Sequence record: PX246730.1
Direction: 5' to 3' (one strand)
DNA length: 64,000 bases
DNA from: a phage
Shown here: positions 5,331-56,429 of the stretch, one piece after another
How the letters are laid out: each line of letters begins with the position of its first letter
Position numbering within the stretch: position 1 is the first letter of the stretch
The notes under the pieces: generated by a model
Seen by the model: only the letters and a program-made list of their open reading frames with translations
The model's database searches: none
Told to the model about the DNA's origin: nothing
Position numbers and translations under genes: made by a program

Positions 5331-5678
5331 ATGACATTTAAAGAGTTCTGTCAAGCTACTTTCATAATTGTTTTCTTAGTTGGGGCAGGTGTCTGGGGAG
5401 GATACTCTTACAGAGACTATCAAGTTGCTGAAACTGAGCTAAACAATGAGAAACTCATCAGTGTTGCTAAAGATGCTTACCAGGAAGGTTTAGCCACACT
5501 GAGCACCAATTACAAAAATGATTTGAAAGATGTGCTTGCTAAGAATAAGCATACAAAAGAGGTACTAACGTATGAAAAGGCTAAGCCAGAGTTTTATAAT
5601 GTTTGTGTTACTGATAATTATGTCAGGGTGTTCAACGAACAAAGTGAGCAGTACATTCAAAAACTCCCAAGTAAGTGA
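5331..5678 (+). CDS. i-spanin-like membrane protein (N-terminal TM + coiled coil)
   Basis: TM segment FIIVFLVGAGVWGG then charged helical region; 3' end overlapped out of frame by a lipoprotein ORF. Confidence 0.45.
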   Translation: MTFKEFCQATFIIVFLVGAGVWGGYSYRDYQVAETELNNEKLISVAKDAYQEGLATLSTNYKNDLKDVLAKNKHTKEVLTYEKAKPEFYNVCVTDNYVRVFNEQSEQYIQKLPSK

Positions 5679-8325: not shown

Positions 8326-8531
8326 TGCTTTACAGTCGTGAATTGATGGTTACAACTAACGTTAACACAAAGGTAAAACGTTTTTACATGCAAATTTGTG
8401 ACGTATGGTCTAGAATATCAGAAGCTGACTATTGCAACTATGTAGAAACAGCTATAAACTCTAATTGCTACCTTACAAGAAATACTAAGAATTTTACAAG
8501 GCAAACAGCGATTTACTGTTACGATAAATAA
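8325..8531 (+). CDS. hypothetical small protein
   Basis: start ATG overlaps upstream stop (TAATG). Confidence 0.4.
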   Translation: MLYSRELMVTTNVNTKVKRFYMQICDVWSRISEADYCNYVETAINSNCYLTRNTKNFTRQTAIYCYDK

Positions 8532-23363: not shown

Positions 23364-23444
23364 TTTTAAAAGGTGTTGACAGACTCTACAAAGTTGCTCT
23401 AAAGTCTGTCACATCAAACAACAAATGAGAGAAGAGAGTAAAAT

Positions 23445-24860
23445 ATGAGCGAGTTATTCAAACATGCGCACCTTCATGCAGGTCGAACTGAAAATGGTGC
23501 TGTAAACCATACTTCATCAATGTCTGCTCTGGTAGACTTCTACAAAGCCGCTGGCTCAAGCCGTAGCAATGTAGAAATCTTACCAGACCTGTTCTACAAA
23601 GCTTTGCGTGAGGATGTTGATGTTGCAGTTCGTATTTTACTGCATATGCGAGATGTACGAGAAGGTATGGGTGAGCGTAAAGCCTTCAGAACTGTTTTGC
23701 TTCAAGCGATTGAAGACAAAGTTTTAGAGCCTACACAGGTTCTTCGCATTATGGATAAGATTGCAGAGCTTGGTCGTTTTGATGACTTCAAAATCTTCGT
23801 AGGTACTCGTTTTGAGACAGATGCCTTTAAGCATTTAGAAGCAGCATTACTAGACCCTGAGACAGCAGGTTTAGCAGCCAAGTGGTTACCACGAGTAAAA
23901 CCACGACACAAACAGTTTGTAAAACGTTTCTGTAAGTTTGCAAACTTAAGCGAGAAAGAGTATCGCACACTGTTATCTGCACTGTCTGATACGGTTGAGC
24001 AAAAAATCTCTGCTAATGAGTTTGGTAAGATTGATTACAGTAAGATTCCTTCTCTTGCTGCTGCACGTTACCAAAAACTCTTTAACCGTAAAGATGGAGA
24101 ACGCTACAAAGCTTACATTGAGTCGCTATCAAAAGGTGAAGCTAAGATTAATGCTGGTGCTGTCTACCCATACGATGTGATTAAATCTATCAAGCATGGT
24201 AATGCAGATGTTGCTAATGAGCAGTGGAAAGCACTACCAAACTGGATGGCAGAAGGTGAGAACATCTTGTGTATGACTGATGTCTCAAGCTCAATGTCTT
24301 GGGTGAATCTTGGTTCAATCACGGCTCTTGATATTGGTGTATCTCTTGCCCTGTATGTAGCAGAACGCAATACTGGTTGCTTTAAGAATGAGTTAATGGT
24401 TTATTCAACAAACCCTCATTTCATTGAACTGAGTGGTGATTTACGAAACCGTCATCGTCAGGTGATGCGACACGTTGAATATGGTTCAACTAACTTACAA
24501 GCAGCTTTTGACCGTATTCTTGAGACAGGTAAAAGAAACAACTTGACTCAGAAAGATATGCCAAGTAAGCTTATCATCTTCTCAGATATGGAATTCAATC
24601 AGGTTGATGGAGCTAATGGTCGTACAAACTTTGAAGCAATTCAGAGTAAGTACAAAAAAGCTGGATATGAGATGCCACAACTGGTATTCTGGTACTTAGC
24701 AAACCGTAATGGTACTTGCGAAGTGTCTGTTAAGGATAACGGTGTAGCAATGGTATCTGGTTTCTCTCCAGCCACTTTAAAAGCTCTGCTTGGTGGTGAG
24801 AAGTTTGACCCAACCAGCGTAATGCTCAAAGCAGTAATGATTGACCGTTACATCTGGTAA
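23445..24860 (+). CDS. vWA-domain protein resembling Ro60/Rsr (TROVE + vWA)
   Basis: MIDAS motif DVSSSM followed by LGSI; C-terminal IIFSDMEF and GFSPATLKAL segments resemble Ro60 vWA (from memory); N-domain not verifiable. Confidence 0.55.
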   Translation: MSELFKHAHLHAGRTENGAVNHTSSMSALVDFYKAAGSSRSNVEILPDLFYKALREDVDVAVRILLHMRDVREGMGERKAFRTVLLQAIEDKVLEPTQVLRIMDKIAELGRFDDFKIFVGTRFETDAFKHLEAALLDPETAGLAAKWLPRVKPRHKQFVKRFCKFANLSEKEYRTLLSALSDTVEQKISANEFGKIDYSKIPSLAAARYQKLFNRKDGERYKAYIESLSKGEAKINAGAVYPYDVIKSIKHGNADVANEQWKALPNWMAEGENILCMTDVSSSMSWVNLGSITALDIGVSLALYVAERNTGCFKNELMVYSTNPHFIELSGDLRNRHRQVMRHVEYGSTNLQAAFDRILETGKRNNLTQKDMPSKLIIFSDMEFNQVDGANGRTNFEAIQSKYKKAGYEMPQLVFWYLANRNGTCEVSVKDNGVAMVSGFSPATLKALLGGEKFDPTSVMLKAVMIDRYIW

Positions 24861-24878
24861 AAAGTTTTAAAAAGGGTA

Positions 24879-24907
24879 TTGACAATGTGTTTGATACCCT
24901 TTAATAT
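24879..24907 (+). promoter_or_regulatory. sigma70-like promoter TTGACA-N17-TAATAT flanked by 8-bp inverted repeat
   Basis: AAGGGTAT...ATACCCTT brackets the promoter. Confidence 0.55.
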
Positions 24908-24969
24908 GTCCTACATAGAAACGAAATGAGAGCTTTTCTAAGATACTGAAAAATATTTTAAAAAAGTTC

Positions 24970-24998
24970 TTGACAACCACTAAAAAATAATGTTAAAG
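24970..24998 (+). promoter_or_regulatory. candidate promoter (TTGACA-N17-TTAAAG) with dyad ACCACT/AGTGGT, upstream of tRNA array
   Basis: read directly; -10 weak. Confidence 0.35.
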
Positions 24999-25025
24999 TG
25001 GTTACATAGAGTTTGAAAAGTTTAT

Positions 25026-25102
25026 CTCTGTTTAGCTCAGCTTGGTAGAGCGTTCCGTTTGGGGCGGTAAGGCCGGAGGTTCAAGTCCTCCAACAGAGAC
25101 CA
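25026..25102 (+). tRNA. tRNA-Pro(TGG)
   Basis: 7-bp acceptor CTCTGTT/AACAGAG, D-loop AGCTTGGTA, anticodon loop TTTGGGG, T-loop TTCAAGT, CCA encoded. Confidence 0.75.
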
Positions 25103-25109
25103 AATTAAT

Positions 25110-25187
25110 GTTCCAGTAGACAAAATGGTATAGTCACCACTCTTTCAAAGTGGATATTTGAGGGTTCAAATCCCTTCTGGAACGCCA
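25110..25187 (+). tRNA. tRNA-Glu(TTC)
   Basis: acceptor GTTCCAG/CTGGAAC, anticodon loop CTTTCAA, T-loop TTCAAAT, CCA encoded. Confidence 0.7.
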
Positions 25188-25192
25188 GTTTT

Positions 25193-25267
25193 GACAGAAG
25201 ACCAATTGCAGCAAACTTAATCTTATTCATCTGAAGGTAAATCGGACAAAGAAGAGATTTGGTCTGG
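25193..25267 (+). ncRNA. framed element a (ACAGAAGACC ... GGTCTGG closing stem)
   Basis: member of 4-copy family with covarying closing stem; function unknown. Confidence 0.3.
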
Positions 25268-25279
25268 TCATTAAGAATT

Positions 25280-25355
25280 GCGGGTATAGAGAAAGGGCGT
25301 CTCACATGTCTCATTAGCATGGTATCGGCAGGTTCGACTCCTGCACCCGCCTCCA
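25280..25355 (+). tRNA. tRNA-Met/Ile2(CAT)
   Basis: anticodon arm CATGT-CTCATTA-GCATG, T-loop TTCGACT; acceptor register ambiguous. Confidence 0.55.
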
Positions 25356-25360
25356 AATTT

Positions 25361-25436
25361 ACAGAAGACCGTTTACAGCAATACTTATTAAATTTTTAGC
25401 GGAAAAAATTGAAAGATACGGTCTGGTAATACTAAA
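25361..25436 (+). ncRNA. framed element b
   Basis: AGACCG/CGGTCT closing stem (compensatory change versus element a). Confidence 0.3.
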
Positions 25437-25439
25437 CAT

Positions 25440-25513
25440 GGTTAGGAAGCACATAAGGTATGTGCGGTCGCCTGTTAAGCGAATGGCACAGGGTTCGAAT
25501 CCCTGACTAACCG
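25440..25513 (+). tRNA. tRNA-Asn(GTT)
   Basis: D-stem GCAC/GTGC, anticodon loop CTGTTAA, T-arm CAGGG-TTCGAAT-CCCTG. Confidence 0.7.
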
Positions 25514-25525
25514 CAAAATTTAAAT

Positions 25526-25613
25526 GTGTCGTTATCCCGTAGATGGTAGCGGTGGGGACTGTAAATCCCTTGTCATTGAGACTCGGTAGGTTCGACTCCT
25601 ACACGGCACACCA
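25526..25613 (+). tRNA. tRNA-Tyr(GTA), long variable arm
   Basis: acceptor GTGTCGT/ACGGCAC, anticodon loop CTGTAAA, 15-nt variable arm, CCA encoded. Confidence 0.7.
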
Positions 25614-25674
25614 ATTTTGAGAGGGCTATTTAGCCCCTCCCTTAAAGAGTTCTTACGAGTATTCTTTAAAGGAG

Positions 25675-25748
25675 CAGAAGACCAAATACAGCAAGTTACT
25701 TAAAATTTCAAGCCAATTTAATTTTGAAAAATTTAAAACTTGGTCTGG
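25675..25748 (+). ncRNA. framed element c
   Basis: AGACCA/TGGTCT closing stem. Confidence 0.3.
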
Positions 25749-25760
25749 CTCAACAAATTT

Positions 25761-25893
25761 ACAGAAGACCGTTTACAGCAAAACTTAAACAATCTATTTC
25801 TCTGGTAAAGAAAAGGCGAAGGTTCGATTCCTTCACTCGGCAGATGTCGAGTTGGTGTAATGGTAGCACTTAAGATGATAAACAACGGTCTGG
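25761..25893 (+). ncRNA. framed element d enclosing permuted tRNA halves
   Basis: GACCGTT/AACGGTC closing stem surrounds 25797-25870. Confidence 0.35.
25797..25870 (+). tRNA. candidate circularly permuted tRNA-Thr(GGT): 3' half precedes 5' half
   Basis: 3' half = anticodon arm TTTCT-CTGGTAA-AGAAA + T-arm GAAGG-TTCGATT-CCTTC + ACTCGGC; 3 nt later 5' half GTCGAGT + D-arm GTGT-AATGGTA-GCAC; acceptor strands complementary at 7/7 with one GU. Confidence 0.4.
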
Positions 25894-25896
25894 TAA

Positions 25897-26036
25897 TTAT
25901 CTTTGTAGATAAGTTATTAAGCTTACCTGTGAGTATGCGACCACAAAGGGTGAAAGGGTAAATTCTAGATTTAAACCCAACAAGGCACATCGCTACAGAC
26001 CTTAAGCAAGTCTGGGTAGCTTATCTACAAAGATAA
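25897..26036 (+). ncRNA. ~140-nt element closed by 15-bp stem (TTATCTTTGTAGATAAG / CTTATCTACAAAGATAA)
   Basis: long-range perfect inverted repeat. Confidence 0.3.
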
Positions 26037-26042
26037 TTTAAT

Positions 26043-26118
26043 GGAAGTGTAGCAGAATGGTGATGCGGCAGACTTTTAATCTGACAGGCGATGGGTTCGA
26101 ATCCCTCCACTTCTACCA
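26043..26118 (+). tRNA. tRNA-Lys(TTT)
   Basis: acceptor GGAAGTG/CACTTCT, anticodon loop CTTTTAA, T-loop TTCGAAT, CCA encoded. Confidence 0.7.
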
Positions 26119-26122
26119 ATAT

Positions 26123-26199
26123 GGTTCAGTCGCAGATAAGGTAATGCAGGGGTCTCATAAGCCCTATGAATGTGGGTTCGATTCCCATCTGAACCTCCA
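26123..26199 (+). tRNA. tRNA-Met/Ile2(CAT)
   Basis: acceptor GGTTCAG/CTGAACC, anticodon loop CTCATAA, CCA encoded. Confidence 0.7.
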
Positions 26200-26201
26200 A
26201 T

Positions 26202-26277
26202 GCTGTGAAAGCACATATGGATGTGCATTCGGCTGATAACCGAAAGGAAGAAGGTTCGAATCCTTCTCACAGTACCA
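26202..26277 (+). tRNA. tRNA-Ile(GAT)
   Basis: D-stem GCAC/GTGC, anticodon arm TTCGG-CTGATAA-CCGAA, CCA encoded. Confidence 0.75.
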
Positions 26278-26290
26278 ATTTCAATAAAGT

Positions 26291-26319
26291 TGTTGACACT
26301 GAGATGTGACTACTTTATA
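26291..26319 (+). promoter_or_regulatory. strong sigma70-like promoter TTGACA-N17-TATAGT inside tRNA array
   Basis: read directly. Confidence 0.6.
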
Positions 26320-26526
26320 GTAACCTTAGTTTTCGTTGCGTAGCGTCTATTTTGCAAATTTAAAATAAATGCAAACGACAATGTTTTTCTGGCAGTAGCT
26401 TGATAGGCTAAACACCAGTGAGGTCTTCCAATCCCTCATCAAAGAATTTGGCGTACTAGCCCACGGTATGATTAATAAGGTGGGCATCTTTAAGGGCTTT
26501 CTAAGAGAGTCTTTAAAGATTAATTA

Positions 26527-26608
26527 CGGGGCGTATCTCATCTGTCTTCTAAACAGACGTTAACCGAGTAAGTGGAGTATGCGGGTTCGAGTCCTGCCGC
26601 CTCGACCA
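26527..26608 (+). tRNA. non-canonical tRNA-like element with Arg(TCT)-type anticodon hairpin and no recognisable D-arm
   Basis: acceptor CGGGGCG/CGCCTCG, hairpin TCTGT-CTTCTAA-ACAGA, 23-nt extra segment, T-arm GCGGG-TTCGAGT-CCTGC, CCA encoded. Confidence 0.4.
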
Positions 26609-26751
26609 ATTTAGTTAGCAGATTACTTAGACGACCTAAGCGGGTCTTCCTGTAGGGAGGTGGTCTGTATCTCATGTTTTCCAGAACATGTAAATAATCT
26701 GAGAAGGGGCTTTACAGTGTTGAGATAATACGGTAAGCTTCGAATTATAGT

Positions 26752-26834
26752 ATGGGACGATGTTAAGACTCTAAGGCATGAGCAACGGCTTCCAACACCG
26801 TTTCAAAGGGGTTCGACTCCTCCGTCCCATGCCA
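26752..26834 (+). tRNA. tRNA-Trp(CCA), atypical (extra nt between acceptor and D-arm)
   Basis: acceptor ATGGGAC/GTCCCAT exact, anticodon loop TTCCAAC, CCA encoded. Confidence 0.55.
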
Positions 26835-26847
26835 AAGTCTTATTAGG

Positions 26848-26935
26848 GGTAGGTAGCGGCTAATGGTAGCCAAACTGTCTTGAAAACAGTTGCCACTGTA
26901 GAGATACGGTGAGGGTTCGACTTCTTTACTTACCG
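26848..26935 (+). tRNA. tRNA-Ser(TGA), long variable arm
   Basis: anticodon arm ACTGT-CTTGAAA-ACAGT, 20-nt variable arm, T-loop TTCGACT. Confidence 0.7.
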
Positions 26936-27091
26936 CCTAATAAGATTTTAAAGCCAAGCTTCATTCGGATGTTGCTTTGGTATCCCTCGTGTTGTCGAAC
27001 ACACTAATAAAGCACCTAGTAGGTGTCACGGAGAAGAGATAATATCAAGCTCTCCAAAGGTTCTAGTCACCGGATTAAACAAGACTATGCA

Positions 27092-27112
27092 AAGACCTTT
27101 TTAGGTCTTTTT
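27092..27112 (+). terminator. hairpin AAGACC/GGTCTT plus T-tract inside tRNA array
   Basis: read directly. Confidence 0.45.
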
Positions 27113-27191
27113 AGAGGGCTTCTAAGGTTATTACAGCTTGTTGTGGAACCTTGTTGCTTAGGTTCTTAGAAGTTCTCTAAAAAGATTTAAT

Positions 27192-27269
27192 GGGAGATTG
27201 ACGGTAATTGGTAAACCTATCTCGCTTAGAACGAGATGTTTGAGGGTTCGAATCCCTTGTCTCCTACCA
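27192..27269 (+). tRNA. tRNA with anticodon TAG (Leu-type), short variable loop
   Basis: acceptor GGGAGAT/GTCTCCT (GU ends), anticodon arm TCTCG-CTTAGAA-CGAGA, CCA encoded. Confidence 0.6.
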
Positions 27270-27276
27270 AATTAAT

Positions 27277-27352
27277 GCAGGTGTAGCAAAATGGTTATGC
27301 GGCTGACTCTTAATCAGTAAGACGATGGGTTCAATTCCCTCCACCTGTACCA
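27277..27352 (+). tRNA. tRNA-Lys(CTT)
   Basis: acceptor GCAGGTG/CACCTGT, anticodon loop CTCTTAA, CCA encoded. Confidence 0.7.
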
Positions 27353-27358
27353 GATATT

Positions 27359-27434
27359 GGGGATGTAGTTTACATGGTTAAAACATAAGTTTTGCAAAAT
27401 TAAGTACAGGGTTCAATTCCCTGCTTCTCCACCA
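27359..27434 (+). tRNA. tRNA-Ala(TGC)
   Basis: D-stem GTTT/AAAC, anticodon loop TTTGCAA, T-arm CAGGG-TTCAATT-CCCTG, CCA encoded. Confidence 0.65.
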
Positions 27435-27440
27435 ATTAGT

Positions 27441-27515
27441 GCATCCATAGTTTAAACGGGAAAATTACAGTCTTCCAAACTGAGGTTGAGGGTTCGATTC
27501 CCTCTGGATGCTCCA
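27441..27515 (+). tRNA. tRNA-Gly(TCC)
   Basis: acceptor GCATCCA/TGGATGC exact, anticodon loop CTTCCAA, CCA encoded. Confidence 0.7.
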
Positions 27516-27521
27516 AATAAT

Positions 27522-27598
27522 GCTGCTTTCGTATAATTGGCTATTACACATCCCTTGTAAGGATGGAAATGCAGGTTCGAGTCCTGTGAGCAGCACCA
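27522..27598 (+). tRNA. tRNA-Thr(TGT)
   Basis: anticodon arm CATCC-CTTGTAA-GGATG perfect, T-loop TTCGAGT, CCA encoded. Confidence 0.75.
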
Positions 27599-27602
27599 AT
27601 TC

Positions 27603-27688
27603 AGAGGTCAAGTGAAAGACCGCTGGTGTCAACTGAAGACCGTAACAAATTCCACGGAGTTGAGTTAGCGGCACAACTTCAGACCTCT
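27603..27688 (+). ncRNA. framed element f (AGAGGTC ... GACCTCT) containing GAAGACCG motif
   Basis: long-range 7-bp inverted repeat between tRNAs. Confidence 0.3.
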
Positions 27689-27693
27689 TTCAC

Positions 27694-27768
27694 ACTCGCT
27701 TAGTTTATATGGTAAAACACCACCCTTACAAGATGAAGAAAAAGGTTCAAGTCCTTTAGTGAGTACCA
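27694..27768 (+). tRNA. tRNA-Val(TAC)
   Basis: acceptor ACTCGCT/AGTGAGT, D-stem GTTT/AAAC, anticodon loop CTTACAA, CCA encoded. Confidence 0.6.
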
Positions 27769-27769
27769 T

Positions 27770-27847
27770 GTTCCAGTATCCCAATTGGCAGAGGATGCAA
27801 GCTCAAACCTTGTACTAGTGACGGTTCGAATCCGTCTTGGAACACCA
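27770..27847 (+). tRNA. tRNA with anticodon CAA (Leu-type), short variable loop
   Basis: acceptor GTTCCAG/TTGGAAC, anticodon arm GCAAG-CTCAAAC-CTTGT, CCA encoded. Confidence 0.6.
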
Positions 27848-27852
27848 ATTTT

Positions 27853-27928
27853 GCAGGATTAGTTCAAATGGATAGAGCAACAGTCTACGAAGCTGTTAAT
27901 AGGGGTTCGAATCCCTTATCCTGCGCCA
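27853..27928 (+). tRNA. tRNA-Arg(ACG)
   Basis: acceptor GCAGGAT/ATCCTGC exact, anticodon loop CTACGAA, CCA encoded. Confidence 0.7.
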
Positions 27929-27947
27929 ATTTAAAGAGGCTATTTAG

Positions 27948-28505
27948 ATGAGATATTTGAAGTATGCTTCATGGATTTTCTTAGCTTTGTTAGAGCCATT
28001 TGCAGCAATCTTAGCAGTAATTTTAGCACCCTTTGTGGTTCCATTCTACAGTGAAAAGAAAGGACACTTACCTTTTGGATTCAGATGGATGGAGACTTAT
28101 GATAACCCAATTGATGGTGACAAAGGCCACGTTGAGAGATGGGCTAAGATTAGAAAGATTGGTAAGCTCGGTGTTTATATGCAGAGAGTTGGATGGCTCT
28201 GGAGAAACAAAGCTTATAACTTCTCTTACCATGTGCTAGGAAGAGATGTAAAAGATGTTACTAAGTGGAAAGGTAATATCAACGTAAGTTCTAACCCTGA
28301 AGATAATCAGACAGGTTATCTCCTAATGTGGAACAGTAATGCTTGGGGATTATTCGCTTTTACCCCATCAATTAAAATCTTTGGTAAACAATTCTACTGG
28401 AGAATTTATGTTGGATGGAAACTTAAAAGTGTTGTCCCAGAAGAAAGAGCATTCTCAAGGGAAAGAGTTATGTTGGCATTCTTTATTCATCCACTAAGAA
28501 AGTAA
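27948..28505 (+). CDS. membrane protein encoded inside tRNA array
   Basis: 185 aa; N-terminal TM IFLALLEPFAAILAVILAPFVVPF; ATG verified. Confidence 0.45.
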   Translation: MRYLKYASWIFLALLEPFAAILAVILAPFVVPFYSEKKGHLPFGFRWMETYDNPIDGDKGHVERWAKIRKIGKLGVYMQRVGWLWRNKAYNFSYHVLGRDVKDVTKWKGNINVSSNPEDNQTGYLLMWNSNAWGLFAFTPSIKIFGKQFYWRIYVGWKLKSVVPEERAFSRERVMLAFFIHPLRK

Positions 28506-28513
28506 AGATTTAA

Positions 28514-28589
28514 AGGGGATTAGTTTACAAGGTTAAAACCTCGGTCTTTGAAATCGAAGAAGTTGGTTCAATTCCAACATCCCCCACCA
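28514..28589 (+). tRNA. tRNA-Gln(TTG)
   Basis: D-stem GTTT/AAAC, anticodon arm TCGGT-CTTTGAA-ATCGA, T-arm GTTGG-TTCAATT-CCAAC, CCA encoded. Confidence 0.7.
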
Positions 28590-28591
28590 AT

Positions 28592-28670
28592 GCTCCATTA
28601 CTCCAATTGGCAGAGAGGCCAGACTTAAAATCTGTGTTATGTATCGGTTCGAATCCGATATGGAGTACCA
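28592..28670 (+). tRNA. tRNA with anticodon TAA (Leu-type), 7-nt variable loop
   Basis: acceptor GCTCCAT/ATGGAGT, anticodon loop CTTAAAA, T-arm ATCGG-TTCGAAT-CCGAT, CCA encoded. Confidence 0.55.
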
Positions 28671-28675
28671 AATTT

Positions 28676-28751
28676 AGCGGTATAGCATAACTGGCAATGC
28701 AGCAGTCTCTGAAGCTGTCCTATTAAGGTTCAAATCCTTATGCCGCTGCCA
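28676..28751 (+). tRNA. tRNA-Gln(CTG)
   Basis: D-stem GCAT/ATGC, anticodon loop CTCTGAA, T-arm TAAGG-TTCAAAT-CCTTA, CCA encoded. Confidence 0.7.
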
Positions 28752-28782
28752 CTTCTAAGGGTTCTTACGAGAGTCCTTAAAT

Positions 28783-28858
28783 GTGGCCTTATCATAAAAG
28801 GTAATGACCCATGCTGTGAACATGGTCTATACGGGTTCAAATCCCGTAGGTCACCCCA
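28783..28858 (+). tRNA. tRNA-His(GTG)
   Basis: anticodon arm CCATG-CTGTGAA-CATGG perfect, T-arm ACGGG-TTCAAAT-CCCGT, CCA encoded. Confidence 0.75.
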
Positions 28859-28863
28859 ATTTA

Positions 28864-28937
28864 TAGTCCAAGTAGCTTATATGGTAAAGCGCGTGTCTGA
28901 AAAACATGAGAAGAGGGTTCAAATCCCACTGGACTAC
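28864..28937 (+). tRNA. tRNA-Phe(GAA)
   Basis: acceptor TAGTCCA/TGGACTA exact, anticodon loop CTGAAAA; 2 extra nt before D-stem. Confidence 0.6.
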
Positions 28938-28955
28938 CAATTTCAAAGGTGCTTA

Positions 28956-29690
28956 ATGAAAGAGATGACAGAACAAGGTAAGGAGATTTTTAATCTCTTA
29001 AAAACCGGTAGAGGGTTTTCTAATCCCCTTATTACTGGTGCAGCAGTTCTCGGTGGAACCGTAGCTGCCTCTACATCACTTGTAAGCTCTATTAGCTCTG
29101 TAACAGACCCTACAATAAAAGATAAGCTTGTTGCTGCTGGGCTTACAACAGTCCTCCTAAACAGCTTTACAACAAGCCTGACAAGCACTACAGCAACTAC
29201 TAAGACCCTGACAGACTACGGTCAAAAGTCTATTGATGAGTTTTCATCACGTATGCAGGTAGCAAAGGGATACTCCAATGTTATGGGTGCAGCAGGAGAA
29301 CAAGTTGGTTGTACACCATTCAGTGGTATTATGGGTGTTGCTACAGAGTATGGTCAAAAAGCTATTGACATGATGAACAGTACACTAGATAGTGTTAATG
29401 GTGTGTTAAGTGACTTACAAGATGCTATTGATAAGGGTCTTGATACTGTTTCTGATTTAGCTAACCAAGCTGTTAGTAAGATTAATGAAGGTATCTCGAA
29501 GATTACAGCTTATGCAGATGAAGTTGTGCAGATGATTGAAGAAGAAGCTGCCCTTATTGCAGAGTACCTTAAAACGAATATCAATGGGTTCTTAGCAGGT
29601 ATCTTACCAGACTGGTTTGATGATGCCTGTAAAACTGGTGTAATTGACACTATTGCAACACCAGAAATGAAGAGCGCATTACAGAAATAA
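28956..29690 (+). CDS. hypothetical protein (Ser/Thr-rich N-region)
   Basis: track ORF 28740 reads through three tRNAs; start moved to first ATG downstream of tRNA-Phe. Confidence 0.4.
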   Translation: MKEMTEQGKEIFNLLKTGRGFSNPLITGAAVLGGTVAASTSLVSSISSVTDPTIKDKLVAAGLTTVLLNSFTTSLTSTTATTKTLTDYGQKSIDEFSSRMQVAKGYSNVMGAAGEQVGCTPFSGIMGVATEYGQKAIDMMNSTLDSVNGVLSDLQDAIDKGLDTVSDLANQAVSKINEGISKITAYADEVVQMIEEEAALIAEYLKTNINGFLAGILPDWFDDACKTGVIDTIATPEMKSALQK

Positions 29691-29691
29691 T

Positions 29692-29784
29692 GGAAGATTA
29701 ACCCTAAAAGGTAAGGGAGCAGTTTGCTAAACTGCCAGTAGCTGAGAAATCGGTGTACCAGTTCAAGTCTGGTATCTTCCTCCA
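29692..29784 (+). tRNA. tRNA-Ser(GCT), long variable arm
   Basis: acceptor GGAAGAT/ATCTTCC exact, D-arm CCC..GGG, anticodon arm GCAGT-TTGCTAA-ACTGC, 21-nt variable arm, CCA encoded. Confidence 0.75.
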
Positions 29785-29788
29785 ATTT

Positions 29789-29864
29789 GAATCCGTGACA
29801 GAAATGGATATGTGCCTGTCTGCAAAACAGGTTTATAAGGGTTCGAGTCCCTTCGGATTCTCCA
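29789..29864 (+). tRNA. tRNA-Cys(GCA)
   Basis: acceptor GAATCCG/CGGATTC exact, anticodon arm CCTGT-CTGCAAA-ACAGG, CCA encoded. Confidence 0.75.
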
Positions 29865-29901
29865 AGTTATTTTACTCTCTCTCAATTAAAATAATAATAA
29901 T

Positions 29902-29961
29902 GCCCTGCTATAAGTATTCTTCCTTTCGCTACCGAAGAGTATTTTTAGACAGGGCTTTTTT
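29902..29961 (+). terminator. long hairpin terminator after tRNA array
   Basis: GCCCTG ... CAGGGC enclosing inner stem, then TTTTTT. Confidence 0.6.
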
Positions 29962-30026
29962 ACAGAGTTATACTTTATAGGAAGACTTATACAGTATGTC
30001 TCTGACGTACATTGTGGTTTCTCCTT

Positions 30027-56069: not shown

Positions 56070-56429
56070 TTATGGGAACAAACACTTAATGTCATCGTTT
56101 TTGAAAACGAAACTTGTGTAGTTATGACCATCAACATCCAACCAAACAGCCTGAACATCTACACCATCAAGATTCTGGTAAAGCTCTTTGATGAAGTGGT
56201 CTTTCACAATCTGGCTACTAGTGGTTTCCAGCTTGATGTTTGAGATTGCTGAACCTACAGCCATATAGCCCATGACACGTTTCTTCTCAGTGTGCTTAAT
56301 CTTACCATCTTTGTAAGCCATAATGAGATTGGAGAGAACCTTCACACCATAATACTTTTCAAGGTGAGTTGGTACGCCATAAAAGCCTAATGCGAAGTTT
56401 TCAGAGTGGATAATGTTTTCACGTTTCAT
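56070..56429 (-). CDS. hypothetical protein
   Basis: 119-aa ORF. Confidence 0.5.
   Translation of the reverse strand: MKRENIIHSENFALGFYGVPTHLEKYYGVKVLSNLIMAYKDGKIKHTEKKRVMGYMAVGSAISNIKLETTSSQIVKDHFIKELYQNLDGVDVQAVWLDVDGHNYTSFVFKNDDIKCLFP

What the first reader, a model, noticed from the sequence alone, without database searches (positions are those of the whole stretch)
25193..25893. Four paralogous framed RNA-like elements in the tRNA array with covarying closing stems
Four intergenic elements (a 25193-25267, b 25361-25436, c 25675-25748, d 25761-25893) start with a conserved box (T)ACAGAAGACC(N3-4)(T)ACAGCAA(N)ACTTA and end with GGTCTGG. The AGACC(A/G) and (T/C)GGTCT arms covary between copies (A:T in a and c, G:C in b and d), which argues for a selected RNA stem, not chance. 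Similar frames are the 15-bp stem element at 25897-26036 and AGAGGTC/GACCTCT at 27603-27688. They could be processing signals, stable small RNAs like the T4 tRNA-region RNAs C and D, or promoters of the form TTTACA-N17-ACTTA.
Basis: seen in the sequence. Interest (0 to 1): 0.6.

Follow-up and report, generated by a model that had tools for sequence, protein, structure and literature searches.

The report
Phage Y-like RNAs beside Ro60-like gene
The four framed elements are real: they belong to a widespread, undescribed family of small structured RNAs that always lies next to, and on the same strand as, a phage gene for a Ro60-like RNA-binding protein, so they are most likely that protein's partner "Y RNAs".

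Summary
Four elements (a 25192-25270, b 25359-25429, c 25672-25751, d 25759-25896) share one frame. It is a 4-bp outer helix, an AGA/G internal loop, then a 7-8-bp helix AGACC(R)(W)/(W)(Y)GGUCU. Two bases after that helix comes (A/G)CAGCAA..CUUA. The window is a Felixounavirus. The ORF just upstream (23445-24860, DUF2828+DUF7788) models as a Ro60/TROVE+vWA ring.

The same frame recurs beside homologues of that gene. The consensus is 5' A|AGRNUNN|NU|(A/U)CAGCAA ... NNANYCU|G. I found it in 76 distant viral loci and in 80 independent loci from bacterial and archaeal assemblies. It is always on the gene's strand, and all seven pairs covary.

A covariance model trained only on distant phages ranks b, c and a as the top three hits in the 64-kb window.

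Element d also carries a permuted tRNA mimic (V, T arm, acceptor-like hairpin, D arm). That is the YrlA layout, and it recurs in distant members.

Best reading: these are Y-RNA analogues released from the tRNA-array transcript and bound by the Ro60-like protein. They fail the classical Ro60-binding motif (GNCGAA) and match nothing in Rfam, so I rate them a new variant of a known kind. Binding and RNA ends are inferred, not shown. The promoter and terminator readings are not supported.

The parts
23445..24860 (+). Gene for a 471-aa Ro60-like protein (TROVE-like helical ring plus vWA domain with a DxSxS MIDAS motif). It is the proposed binding partner of the elements.
   Evidence: Pfam DUF2828 (1e-29) and DUF7788 (1.6e-43). 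AF2 model with pLDDT 86.4 and pTM 0.87. The ten best Foldseek PDB hits are all Ro60/TROVE proteins: 2i91 at E 5.9e-8 and TMq 0.65, 9kop (Thermus phage Ro60), 2nvo (Deinococcus Rsr). D279, S281 and S283 are invariant in 37 homologues. There is no PDB hit by sequence.
24879..24999 (+). Two sigma-70-like promoters (24879-24907 and 24970-24999) between the gene and the tRNA array. They are the inferred start of the transcript that carries tRNAs and elements a-d.
   Evidence: Both score 10/12 on the promoter scan, and no + strand terminator-like site was found in 24700-30000. Use of these sites is inferred.
25192..25270 (+). Element a. Outer helix TGAC/GTCA, loop AGA/G, inner helix AGACCAA/TTGGTCT, linker TT, GCAGCAA at 25208-25214. 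It lies between tRNA-Glu (ends 25187) and tRNA-Met (starts 25279).
   Evidence: CM R2, trained only on distant phages, gives 25.0 bits and E 5.5e-3.
25359..25429 (+). Element b. Outer helix TTAC/GTAA, loop AGA/G, inner helix AGACCGT/ACGGTCT, linker TT, ACAGCAA at 25375-25381. It lies between tRNA-Met (ends 25355) and tRNA-Asn (starts 25440).
   Evidence: R2 gives 30.7 bits and E 2.7e-4, the best hit in the window. The outer helix has covarying alleles in relatives.
25672..25751 (+). Element c. Outer helix GAGC/GCTC, loop AGA/G, inner helix AGACCAA/TTGGTCT, linker AT, ACAGCAA at 25688-25694. It has an inner hairpin TTTCAA-GCCAATTTAATT-TTGAAA.
   Evidence: R2 gives 29.8 bits and E 4.5e-4. A similar inner hairpin is present in the distant locus L095 at 8344-8412.
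25759..25896 (+). Element d. Same frame (TTAC/GTAA, AGA/G, AGACCGTT/AACGGTCT, ACAGCAA at 25775-25781), enclosing a 102-nt insert with a permuted tRNA-like domain.
   Evidence: R2 matches only its 5' part (13.8 bits) because of the long insert. It is conserved in about 250 public Ounavirinae records and is unannotated there, or overlaid by 'hypothetical protein'.
25797..25813 (+). d: V hairpin (TTTCT-CTGGTAA-AGAAA).
   Evidence: MFE and centroid fold. In L021 and L022 another hairpin, CTTTCA-GGGTA-TGAGAG, takes its place.
25818..25834 (+). d: T-arm mimic (GAAGG-TTCGATT-CCTTC).
   Evidence: nearly invariant. Partial Rfam tRNA match at 25785-25835, 26.8 bits, below the gathering score of 29.
25835..25852 (+). 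d: acceptor-like closed hairpin (ACTCGGC-AGAT-GTCGAGT, 7 bp).
   Evidence: Three of its pairs change on both sides among relatives and 100% of cells stay paired (ACACGTT/ACGGCGTGT in L019 type; ACCCTTC/GAAGGGT in L021 type).
25853..25869 (+). d: U8-like T, then the D-arm mimic (GTGT-AATGGTA-GCAC, with GG in the loop).

Best explanation
Elements a-d are small non-coding RNAs that play the role of Y RNAs for the Ro60-like protein encoded just upstream.

Inferred steps. They are transcribed with the tRNA array from the promoters at 24879 and 24970. They are freed as pieces of about 70-140 nt when the neighbouring tRNAs are matured (RNase P on the 3' side, tRNA 3' processing on the 5' side).

Shown by folding and covariation. 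Each folds so that its two ends pair. The basal 7-bp helix, the G that follows it, and the single-stranded NU(A/U)CAGCAA(..CUUA) that starts two bases after the helix form one conserved module.

Inferred. This module is the docking site for the Ro60-like ring. The variable interior is the effector module: a small AU-rich hairpin in a, b and c, and a permuted tRNA mimic of YrlA type in d. By analogy with Ro60-Y RNA particles, the effector module would gate the protein or tether it to another factor such as an exoribonuclease or a tRNA-binding enzyme. The particle would act on RNA quality control or counter-defence during infection. The Felixounavirus Bas63 protein gp130, taken to be the orthologue, was reported to counter the ppl defence.

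In many distant relatives a minimal copy of the module sits in the gene's own 5' UTR against the Shine-Dalgarno sequence. This suggests the protein also represses its own translation through the same site (inferred).
For: 1. Protein identity. The ORF 23445-24860 models as Ro60/TROVE+vWA; the top ten PDB fold hits are all Ro60 proteins. A preprint found the same for Bas63 gp130, which lies directly upstream of that phage's tRNA genes, and guessed that Y RNAs hide among them.

2. Gene linkage in distant phages. In 76 viral loci whose protein is 39-48% identical, ACAGCAA occurs 127 times on the gene strand and 45 on the other. With the geometry taken from the window (7-bp helix at -9..-3, complement within 220 nt) there are 57 hits on the + strand and 2 on the - strand. 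G follows the helix in 54 of 57, and there are 39 distinct stem sequences.

3. Covariation. In 70 distinct distant elements all seven pairs change on both sides, with up to five pair types per position. Pairedness there is by construction; the strand contrast is the unbiased test.

4. Independent model test. CM R2, trained only on distant phages, ranks b, c and a as the three best hits in the whole window on both strands (30.7, 29.8 and 25.0 bits). The next hit has E 0.76.

5. Replication on unseen data. In 80 loci from bacterial and archaeal assemblies (33-42% identity), R2 gives 62 hits and all are on the gene strand, mostly 0-500 nt upstream. The descriptor gives 132 versus 9, in 68 of 80 loci, with G after the helix in 118 of 132 and 19 stems holding a G.U pair.

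6. YrlA layout. Element d has V, T, acceptor-like and D hairpins in the YrlA order, with compensatory changes in the acceptor-like helix. The same layout recurs inside the frame in L047, L109 (twice), L087, L040, L099 and L060. T arms are about tenfold enriched inside elements. This matches the published YrlA description.

7. 5'-UTR copies. Minimal copies abut the Shine-Dalgarno sequence of the gene in L042, L047, L050, L059, L061, L094, L097 and L106.
Against: - There are no binding, expression or end-mapping data. The protein-RNA link rests on synteny, strand and conservation.
- The classical Ro60-binding sequence is absent. GNCGAA occurs only once, inside the T arm of d, and no Rfam family matches even at E<=10.
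- The protein resembles Ro60 only in fold (12-16% identity; no sequence hit to PDB).
- In the preprint, gp130 alone, expressed from a plasmid or from T7, was enough to counter ppl. The RNAs are therefore not required for that activity.
- Single-sequence folding energies of a-c are unremarkable (z -0.5 to -1.8).
- The window has no copy of the motif in the gene's own 5' UTR.
Confidence: 0.7

Rival explanations
1. The elements are purely cis-acting regulatory sites. They would be operators or decoys through which the Ro60-like protein controls its own synthesis or the fate of the tRNA precursor, with no role as free RNA-protein particles.
For: In many distant loci one copy lies in the gene's 5' UTR with its 3' arm and conserved G touching the Shine-Dalgarno sequence. 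In the bacterial-assembly loci most copies lie 0-500 nt upstream of the gene. In the preprint, gp130 works without the RNAs.
Against: In the window none of the four lies before a start codon; they sit between tRNAs 330-1040 nt downstream of the gene. Copies come in tandem sets of 2-5 with different elaborate interiors, including tRNA mimics, which an operator does not need. Bacterial Y RNAs also lie upstream of rsr and are cut from one precursor.
Confidence: 0.12
2. The elements are processing or stability signals of the tRNA-array transcript, recognised by host RNases. For example, leader-trailer helices that direct cleavage, unrelated to the Ro60-like protein.
For: They lie between tRNAs, 3-10 nt from mature tRNA ends. 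One distant frame encloses a nearly complete tRNA-like sequence (L076 3734-3834).
Against: The motif follows the DUF2828 gene even where it sits directly upstream of the gene rather than inside a tRNA array. The helices of 7 plus 4 bp are too short for RNase III (established knowledge). The invariant single-stranded (A/U)CAGCAA and the 3' G point to a specific reader.
Confidence: 0.08
3. The elements are degenerate tRNA-derived or selfish repeats (pseudo-tRNAs or miniature mobile elements with short inverted ends) that have no function.
For: d contains tRNA parts. The frame looks like short terminal inverted repeats. The neighbourhood is prone to indels, with tRNA-Asp, tRNA-Thr and HNH genes present or absent among relatives.
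Against: The frame is kept across proteins only 33-48% identical, with covarying pairs, G.U pairs and strict strand bias. All four copies are kept at fixed positions in 28 of 29 Felixounavirus loci checked. The acceptor-like helix of d shows compensatory change.
Confidence: 0.05
4. The elements are DNA-level signals: promoters of the form TTTACA-N17-ACTTA, or terminators.
For: b gives a weak sigma-70-like match, TTTACA-16-AATACT, 9/12.
Against: Only one of the four gives any match, while the array's likely promoters score 10-11/12 elsewhere. No + strand terminator-like site was found. The conserved positions covary as base pairs with G.U, and the -35-like TTTACA is not conserved in a, in c or in distant members.
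Confidence: 0.03

Closest known systems
YrlA / YrlB (bacterial and mycobacteriophage Y RNAs; Chen et al. 2014, PMC4201824)
   Same: They are encoded within a few kb of a Ro60-type gene on the same strand, often in sets of two or more cut from one precursor. The ends pair into a stem that carries the presumed protein site. One member (here d) has a tRNA mimic in the order V, T arm, closed acceptor-like stem, D arm. The others are simple hairpin RNAs like YrlB.
   Different: The GNCGAAN0-1G motif near the 5' end is absent. Instead there is a fixed 7-bp helix, a 2-nt linker, (A/U)CAGCAA and a 3' G. The partner protein belongs to DUF2828/DUF7788 and is not a recognisable TROVE sequence family member. 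No Rfam model matches. Minimal copies occur in the gene's 5' UTR.
Yrl1 / Yrl2 of Thermus phage phiLo with phage Ro60 (NAR 2025, PMC12135203)
   Same: A phage-encoded Ro60-fold protein with phage-encoded Y-like RNAs next to the gene. The phiLo protein (PDB 9kop) is among the best structural matches to the window's protein.
   Different: The phiLo RNAs were picked by a CGAA motif in a bulge and lie upstream of the gene. Here the motif differs and the RNAs are embedded in a tRNA array. Binding is shown for phiLo and only inferred here.
Deinococcus radiodurans Yrn1 / Yrn2 and metazoan Y RNAs
   Same: A stem formed by the 5' and 3' ends with an asymmetric internal loop or bulge, plus a variable effector loop. 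The 5' strand UACAGAAGAC loosely recalls UCCGAAGG of human Y1; this comparison is from memory and was not tested.
   Different: The conserved bulged helix GGUCCGA/UUGACUA is not present. The orientation and position of the conserved single-stranded motif differ.
T4 tRNA-region stable RNAs (species 1 and 2, RNAs C and D)
   Same: Small non-tRNA RNAs encoded inside a phage tRNA cluster and presumably released by tRNA-processing enzymes (established knowledge; not tested here).
   Different: I know of no link between the T4 RNAs and a Ro60-like protein or a CAGCAA motif. No sequence comparison was made.
Autoregulatory mRNA operators that mimic an RNA-binding protein's main target (ribosomal-protein leaders, T4 RegA and gp32; established knowledge)
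   Same: In distant relatives a minimal copy of the motif lies in the gene's own leader, with the helix end against the Shine-Dalgarno sequence.
   Different: This applies to distant relatives only. The window's four copies are not in a leader.

Membership tests
Y RNA (Ro60-associated ncRNA, general) | Encoded close to a Ro60-type gene, on the same strand | tested here: met
   The elements start 332-899 nt downstream of the stop codon of the Ro60-fold ORF 23445-24860, on the same strand. The same linkage and strand hold in 76 viral and 80 genomic loci.
Y RNA (Ro60-associated ncRNA, general) | 5' and 3' regions pair into a stem that carries the protein-binding site, with a variable loop module | tested here: met
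   MFE folds give an outer 4-bp and an inner 7-8-bp helix in all four. The helix covaries among paralogues, orthologues and distant members. The true RNA ends are not mapped.
Y RNA (Ro60-associated ncRNA, general) | Physically bound by Ro60 and dependent on it for accumulation | not testable with these tools
   This needs RIP/CLIP, EMSA, and Northern blots with and without the gene.
Y RNA (Ro60-associated ncRNA, general) | Conserved Ro60-binding sequence (metazoan GGUCCGA bulged helix; bacterial GNCGAAN0-1G / CGAA) | tested here: not met
   GNCGAA is absent from a, b and c. In d it occurs only at 25815, inside the T arm, not near the 5' end. The conserved sequence is (A/U)CAGCAA instead.
YrlA subfamily | tRNA-like domain: V, T, acceptor-like (closed) and D stem-loops in that order inside the stem | tested here: met
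   Met for d only: V 25797-25813, T 25818-25834, acceptor-like 25835-25852, D 25855-25869, with compensatory changes in the acceptor-like helix. Not met for a, b and c.
YrlA subfamily | tRNA-invariant nucleotides in the T and D loops (UUCRA T loop, GG in the D loop, U8 and A14 equivalents) | tested here: met
   T loop TTCGATT, D loop AATGGTA, and a T before the D stem (direct reading). A Levitt-pair equivalent is not evident (A with C/A).
YrlA subfamily | Detected by a curated covariance model | tested here: not met
   Rfam 15 finds only tRNA-type matches in 24800-30000 at E<=1 and in 25180-26045 at E<=10, and only tRNA and tmRNA in 14 distant loci. I did not verify whether Rfam 15 holds a YrlA model.
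YrlA subfamily | Modified by TruB and DusA; cleaved by RNase P when the acceptor-like stem has 7 bp | not testable with these tools
   The acceptor-like stem of d has 7 bp, so RNase P cleavage is conceivable. This needs experiments.
tRNA gene or pseudogene | Cloverleaf whose acceptor stem is formed by the two ends, with an anticodon arm | tested here: not met
   ARAGORN calls nothing in a-d. The Rfam tRNA model matches only 25785-25835 of d, at 26.8 bits against a gathering score of 29. The order of the arms is permuted.
Sigma-70 promoter | -35 and -10 hexamers 16-18 nt apart, present in all copies | tested here: not met
   Only b matches, at 9/12. a, c and d do not.
Intrinsic terminator | GC-rich hairpin followed by a U run on the transcribed strand | tested here: not met
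   No + strand site in 24700-30000.

The most novel reading that the evidence does not exclude
A large, undescribed class of Y-RNA analogues exists. It is defined by a 7-bp helix, NU(A/U)CAGCAA and a 3' G, and it partners a divergent Ro60 clade (DUF2828/DUF7788) in phages and prophages of many bacterial phyla. Members range from 32-nt leader hairpins to 60-nt hairpin RNAs and 100-240-nt RNAs that enclose permuted tRNA mimics. Together with the protein they would form a phage RNA-protein particle that acts in RNA surveillance or counter-defence.
Probability: 0.6. Interest if true: 0.8.

Novelty: new variant of a known kind. Interest (0 to 1): 0.72.

Why it matters
Ro60 and its Y RNAs are well studied in animals and in a few bacteria. 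In phages only a handful of cases are described, all recognised through the YrlA or CGAA motif.

Here a different and much larger protein clade, which carries only 'domain of unknown function' labels, turns out to have its own conserved RNA partner motif. The motif is absent from Rfam and unannotated in about 250 public Felix O1-like genomes.

This gives a concrete, testable candidate for the 'hidden Y RNAs' that the PhageMaP authors suspected next to Bas63 gp130, a protein reported to defeat the ppl defence system. It also supplies a simple sequence-and-structure descriptor for finding such RNAs in viromes. Finally, it shows that the tRNA-mimic module of YrlA has been combined with a second, unrelated protein-docking module.

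Tried and rejected
1. 'CAGAAGAAC' hits near the homologous gene in L031-L034 looked like distant copies, but they lie inside coding sequence. Rejected.

2. A sequence search of the protein against PDB found nothing. Only fold comparison showed the Ro60 relation.

3. Rfam at gathering and at permissive thresholds returned only tRNA-type matches and chance hits, such as Dicty_Class_I_RNA at 15-21 bits.

4. MAFFT on natural elements misplaced the 3' arms (A3). I replaced it with a gapless alignment of spliced ends (A4).

5. A second model, R2, built from R1's natural-sequence hits in distant loci, could.

6. CM hits at 10013-10057 (inside ORF 9812-10084) and at 56208-56267(-) have E 0.15-1 and are treated as chance.

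7. The descriptor hit at 28002 (GCAGCAA) lies inside ORF 27948-28505 and is treated as chance.

9. The supplementary tables of Chen 2014, which list the phages, are not held. Two reviews are not held.

10. My guessed accession for Bas63 was wrong; MZ501111 is Bas51. Orthology of the window ORF with Bas63 gp130 is therefore inferred from the paper's description: a Felixounavirus, a Ro60-like fold, a gene directly upstream of the tRNA genes.

11. A literature search on Felixounavirus transcriptomes gave nothing relevant.
Full report
**What the window is.** The 3.1 kb around the finding is 85-98% identical to about 280 Felix O1-like phages (Ounavirinae, Felixounavirus). It is the phage's tRNA array: 24 tRNAs, all on the + strand. 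Directly upstream lies ORF 23445-24860, which relatives annotate as 'RNA-binding protein'.

**The observation.** CAGAAGACC-N5-CAGCAA occurs four times in 64 kb, at 25195, 25362, 25675 and 25762. Shuffles give 0.13 expected. Each is followed by GGTCTGG.

Read as RNA, every copy has the same frame:
- a 4-bp outer helix: TGAC/GTCA in a, TTAC/GTAA in b and d, GAGC/GCTC in c;
- an invariant internal loop: AGA on the 5' side, G on the 3' side;
- a 7-8-bp inner helix: AGACCAA/TTGGTCT in a and c, AGACCGT(T)/(A)ACGGTCT in b and d;
- a 1-2-nt linker ending in T, then (A/G)CAGCAA and, a few bases on, CTTA.

MFE folding recovers both helices in all four, although the energies of the AU-rich a-c are not exceptional (z -0.5 to -1.8).

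All four elements sit at the same places in 28 of 29 related loci; my regex paired only three of the four in L011. Substitutions among the relatives are RNA-like. The outer helix of b exists as UUAC/GUAA or UUGC/GCAA. The helix of a is AGGCC:GGUCU, with a G.U pair, in two phages.

So the observation, including the covariation, is confirmed and extended. Refined limits are a 25192-25270, b 25359-25429, c 25672-25751 and d 25759-25896.

**The neighbouring gene.** The 471-aa product matches only Pfam DUF2828 and DUF7788 and has no sequence match in PDB. An AlphaFold2 model built from 37 homologues is confident (pLDDT 86.4, pTM 0.87). Its ten best PDB matches are all Ro60/TROVE proteins over the full length. 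They include Xenopus Ro60 (2i91, E 5.9e-8, TMq 0.65), the Thermus phage Ro60 (9kop) and Deinococcus Rsr (2nvo). D279, S281 and S283 are invariant in the family, consistent with a vWA MIDAS motif.

A preprint reached the same structural conclusion for gp130 of the Felixounavirus Bas63. That gene lies directly upstream of the phage's tRNA genes. The authors showed that gp130 counters the ppl defence and speculated that some 'tRNA genes' are really Y RNAs (10.1101/2024.10.10.617714). I infer that gp130 is the orthologue of the window ORF. I did not verify this by sequence.

**Element d is a YrlA-type tRNA mimic inside the frame.** Between ACAGCAA and the 3' arm, d folds into four hairpins:
- V: TTTCT-CTGGTAA-AGAAA;
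- a canonical T arm: GAAGG-TTCGATT-CCTTC;
- a closed 7-bp hairpin: ACTCGGC-AGAT-GTCGAGT;
- after a U8-like T, a D arm with GG in its loop: GTGT-AATGGTA-GCAC.

This is the order obtained when a tRNA is entered through the anticodon stem and its acceptor stem is closed by a loop. It is exactly the V, T, AS, D layout described for bacterial YrlA (PMC4201824).

Among 13 distinct orthologues the T and D arms are nearly invariant. The acceptor-like helix is replaced wholesale, with three pairs changed on both sides and 100% of cells paired. ARAGORN calls no tRNA here. The Rfam tRNA model matches only part of d, below threshold (26.8 bits against 29).

**The frame is a conserved motif tied to the gene.** I collected loci around homologues of the protein: 76 viral contigs with 39-48% identical proteins. 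There, ACAGCAA is 127:45 in favour of the gene's strand. It clusters either just downstream of the gene or in its 5' leader.

I then fixed the geometry seen in the window (a 7-nt arm at -9..-3 and its complement within 220 nt). The result was 57 hits on the gene strand and 2 on the other. G follows the helix in 54 of 57, and there are 39 different stem sequences.

Allowing (A/T/G)CAGCAA gives 94 distinct elements. A few of these are chance hits in coding sequence. The consensus is 5' A | A-G-R-N-U-N-N | N-U | (A/U)CAGCAA (often followed by CUUAA) ... N-N-A-N-Y-C-U | G. Sizes cluster at 55-63 nt, with further groups at 85-130 and 156-240 nt.

In a gapless alignment of 70 distant elements all seven pairs change on both sides. 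Pairedness there is by construction, so the strand contrast is the unbiased statistic.

**Covariance-model tests.** The final model, R2, was built only from distant phages.
- On the whole window, both strands, its three best hits are b (30.7 bits, E 2.7e-4), c (29.8 bits, E 4.5e-4) and a (25.0 bits, E 5.5e-3). The next hit has E 0.76. Element d is matched only in its 5' part because of the 102-nt insert.
- On the 76 viral loci it gives 76 hits at E<=0.05, all on the gene strand.
- On a set never used for training, 80 loci from bacterial and archaeal genome assemblies with 33-42% identical proteins, it gives 62 hits at E<=0.1. All are on the gene strand, in 43 loci, mostly 0-500 nt upstream of the gene.
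- On that same unseen set the descriptor gives 132 versus 9, in 68 of 80 loci. G follows the helix in 118 of 132, there are 60 distinct stems, and 19 stems contain a G.U pair.

Strict co-orientation, G.U pairs and covariation place the function at the RNA level.

**Subclasses recur.** Fourteen of 84 distant elements carry a canonical T arm inside the frame, about ten times the background density. Several show the full (V)-T-acceptor-like-D order of d: L047@316, L109@5794 and @8483, L087@5527, L040@7105, L099@3683 and L060@3429. One frame encloses an almost complete, non-permuted tRNA-like sequence (L076 3734-3834). The inner hairpin of c (TTTCAA-GCCAATTTAATT-TTGAAA) has a close counterpart in L095.

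Minimal 32-37-nt versions lie in the gene's leader, with the 3' arm and conserved G touching the Shine-Dalgarno sequence. An example is L047: AGAATTA-AT-ACAGCAA-ACTTTTTAA-TAATTCT-GGAGG-N7-ATG. This is the classic arrangement of an autoregulatory operator. The window itself has no such leader copy.

**How it most likely works.**
- Shown: the conserved structured motif, its linkage to the gene, the Ro60 fold of the protein, and the tRNA-mimic module of d.
- Inferred: the array is transcribed from the sigma-70-like promoters at 24879 and 24970, with no + strand terminator predicted.
- Inferred: tRNA maturation frees a and b. Their outer helices start 3-4 nt after the CCA of the upstream tRNA and end 8-10 nt before the next tRNA.
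- Inferred: the basal helix, the 3' G and single-stranded (A/U)CAGCAA dock the Ro60-like ring. The interior module recruits or mimics something else, as Y RNAs tether Ro60 to PNPase in Deinococcus, Salmonella and Thermus phage phiLo.
- Open: the biological output, which could be RNA surveillance, tRNA-related decoying or counter-defence. It is a caution that gp130 alone sufficed against ppl.

**Rivals.** A purely cis-regulatory role fits the leader copies. It does not fit four intergenic copies with elaborate interiors. General processing signals do not explain linkage to the gene outside tRNA arrays. The promoter reading fails: only b gives a 9/12 match. The terminator reading fails: there is no + strand site. 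Selfish or decayed repeats are contradicted by conservation with covariation across very distant hosts.

**Comparison with known families.** The elements work like Y RNAs, and d like YrlA. Membership in the described YrlA family is not supported. The defining GNCGAAN0-1G motif is absent. No Rfam model matches. The partner protein is a different sequence family.

In the held literature I found no description of DUF2828 in phages, nor any paper on phage Ro60 and Y RNAs that describes this motif. Element d is unannotated, or overlaid by 'hypothetical protein', in about 250 public records. I therefore class it as a new variant of a known kind.

**Limits.** There are no experimental data on transcripts or binding. 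E-values from the shortened calibration are rough. The training elements were chosen with a descriptor derived from the window, so the independent evidence is threefold: the strand asymmetry, the unseen genome set, and the fact that a model holding no Felixounavirus sequence recovers a-c.

Noticed in passing
window 25897-26040 (+): A separate 140-nt structured RNA lies directly after d. It is closed by a helix of about 22 bp (MFE -46.4, z -5.8). In relatives L020-L024 the closing helix is rewritten with compensatory changes (TAGATAAG../..CTTATCTA becomes CAGTGAC../..GTTACTG). An inner hairpin also covaries: CAGAC-CTTAAGCAA-GTCTG becomes CAAACC-CTTTAGCAA-GGTTTG. That hairpin (CUAC-AGAC..GUCU-GG-GUAG with an AGCAA loop) recalls the a-d frame, but the family model does not match it.
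   Followed up: partly
window 27599-27693 (+): A structured spacer between tRNA-Thr and tRNA-Val (z -3.0). It holds a degenerate 5' box, CTGAAGACCGTAACAAA, conserved in nearly all relatives, but has no matching 3' arm and no CM hit. It may be a decayed copy or an unrelated RNA.
   Followed up: partly
window 26527-26605 (+): A tRNA-like sequence scores above Rfam's tRNA gathering threshold (33.4 bits against 29) but is not called by ARAGORN. One relative (REP8) annotates a 'tRNA-OTHER' at roughly the corresponding place in its array.
   Followed up: no
window 26745-26835 (+): Another unannotated tRNA-like stretch (T arm GGGGTTCGACTCCTCC, ending in CCA-like sequence). It lies in a 570-nt spacer that also holds a strong promoter-like site at 26293-26321 (11/12).
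   Followed up: no
window 25614-25671 (+): Between tRNA-Tyr and element c the window has two small hairpins. Relatives carry an extra tRNA there: tRNA-Asp in EcoM2, or an 86-nt 'tRNA-Thr(CGT)' in REP8. The array is polymorphic by insertion and deletion at this point.
   Followed up: partly
L042 3950-3990; L047 1760-1799; L050 2855-2894; L059 3946-3989; L097 3903-3947; L106 3883-3946: Copies of the motif (most 40-45 nt, one 64 nt) lie in the 5' leader of the Ro60-like gene, with the helix end and conserved G abutting the Shine-Dalgarno sequence. This suggests translational autoregulation.
   Followed up: partly
L076 3734-3834 and L076 from 5422 (heptamer at 5431): One frame encloses an almost complete non-permuted tRNA-like sequence, which ARAGORN calls tRNA-Thr(UGU). 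Another element in the same locus has ACCA encoded right after the 3' strand of its acceptor-like stem, as if a CCA end could be exposed by cleavage.
   Followed up: partly
L031-L034, about 50-75 nt after the end of the 29%-identical homologue (e.g. L031 7489-7513): A hairpin AAGATT-AAAGAATACTTAC-AATCTT-G has the frame's helix and 3' G but no CAGCAA. It may be a diverged version of the motif for a more distant protein clade.
   Followed up: no
window 23380-23412 (+): An 8-bp hairpin GACAGACT..AGTCTGTC lies upstream of the Ro60-like gene. It overlaps a TTGACA-N18-TAAAGT promoter-like site that I read by eye. Its arms resemble the a-d frame (AGAC/GUCU-G) but its loop lacks CAGCAA, and it gave no CM hit.
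   Followed up: no
window 27948-28505 and 28740-29690 (+): Two protein genes (DUF7338, annotated as holin in a relative, and DUF7217) are embedded inside the tRNA array. The 316-aa ORF as listed overlaps the tRNA-Gln, His and Phe calls at its 5' end, so its real start is probably further downstream.
   Followed up: no
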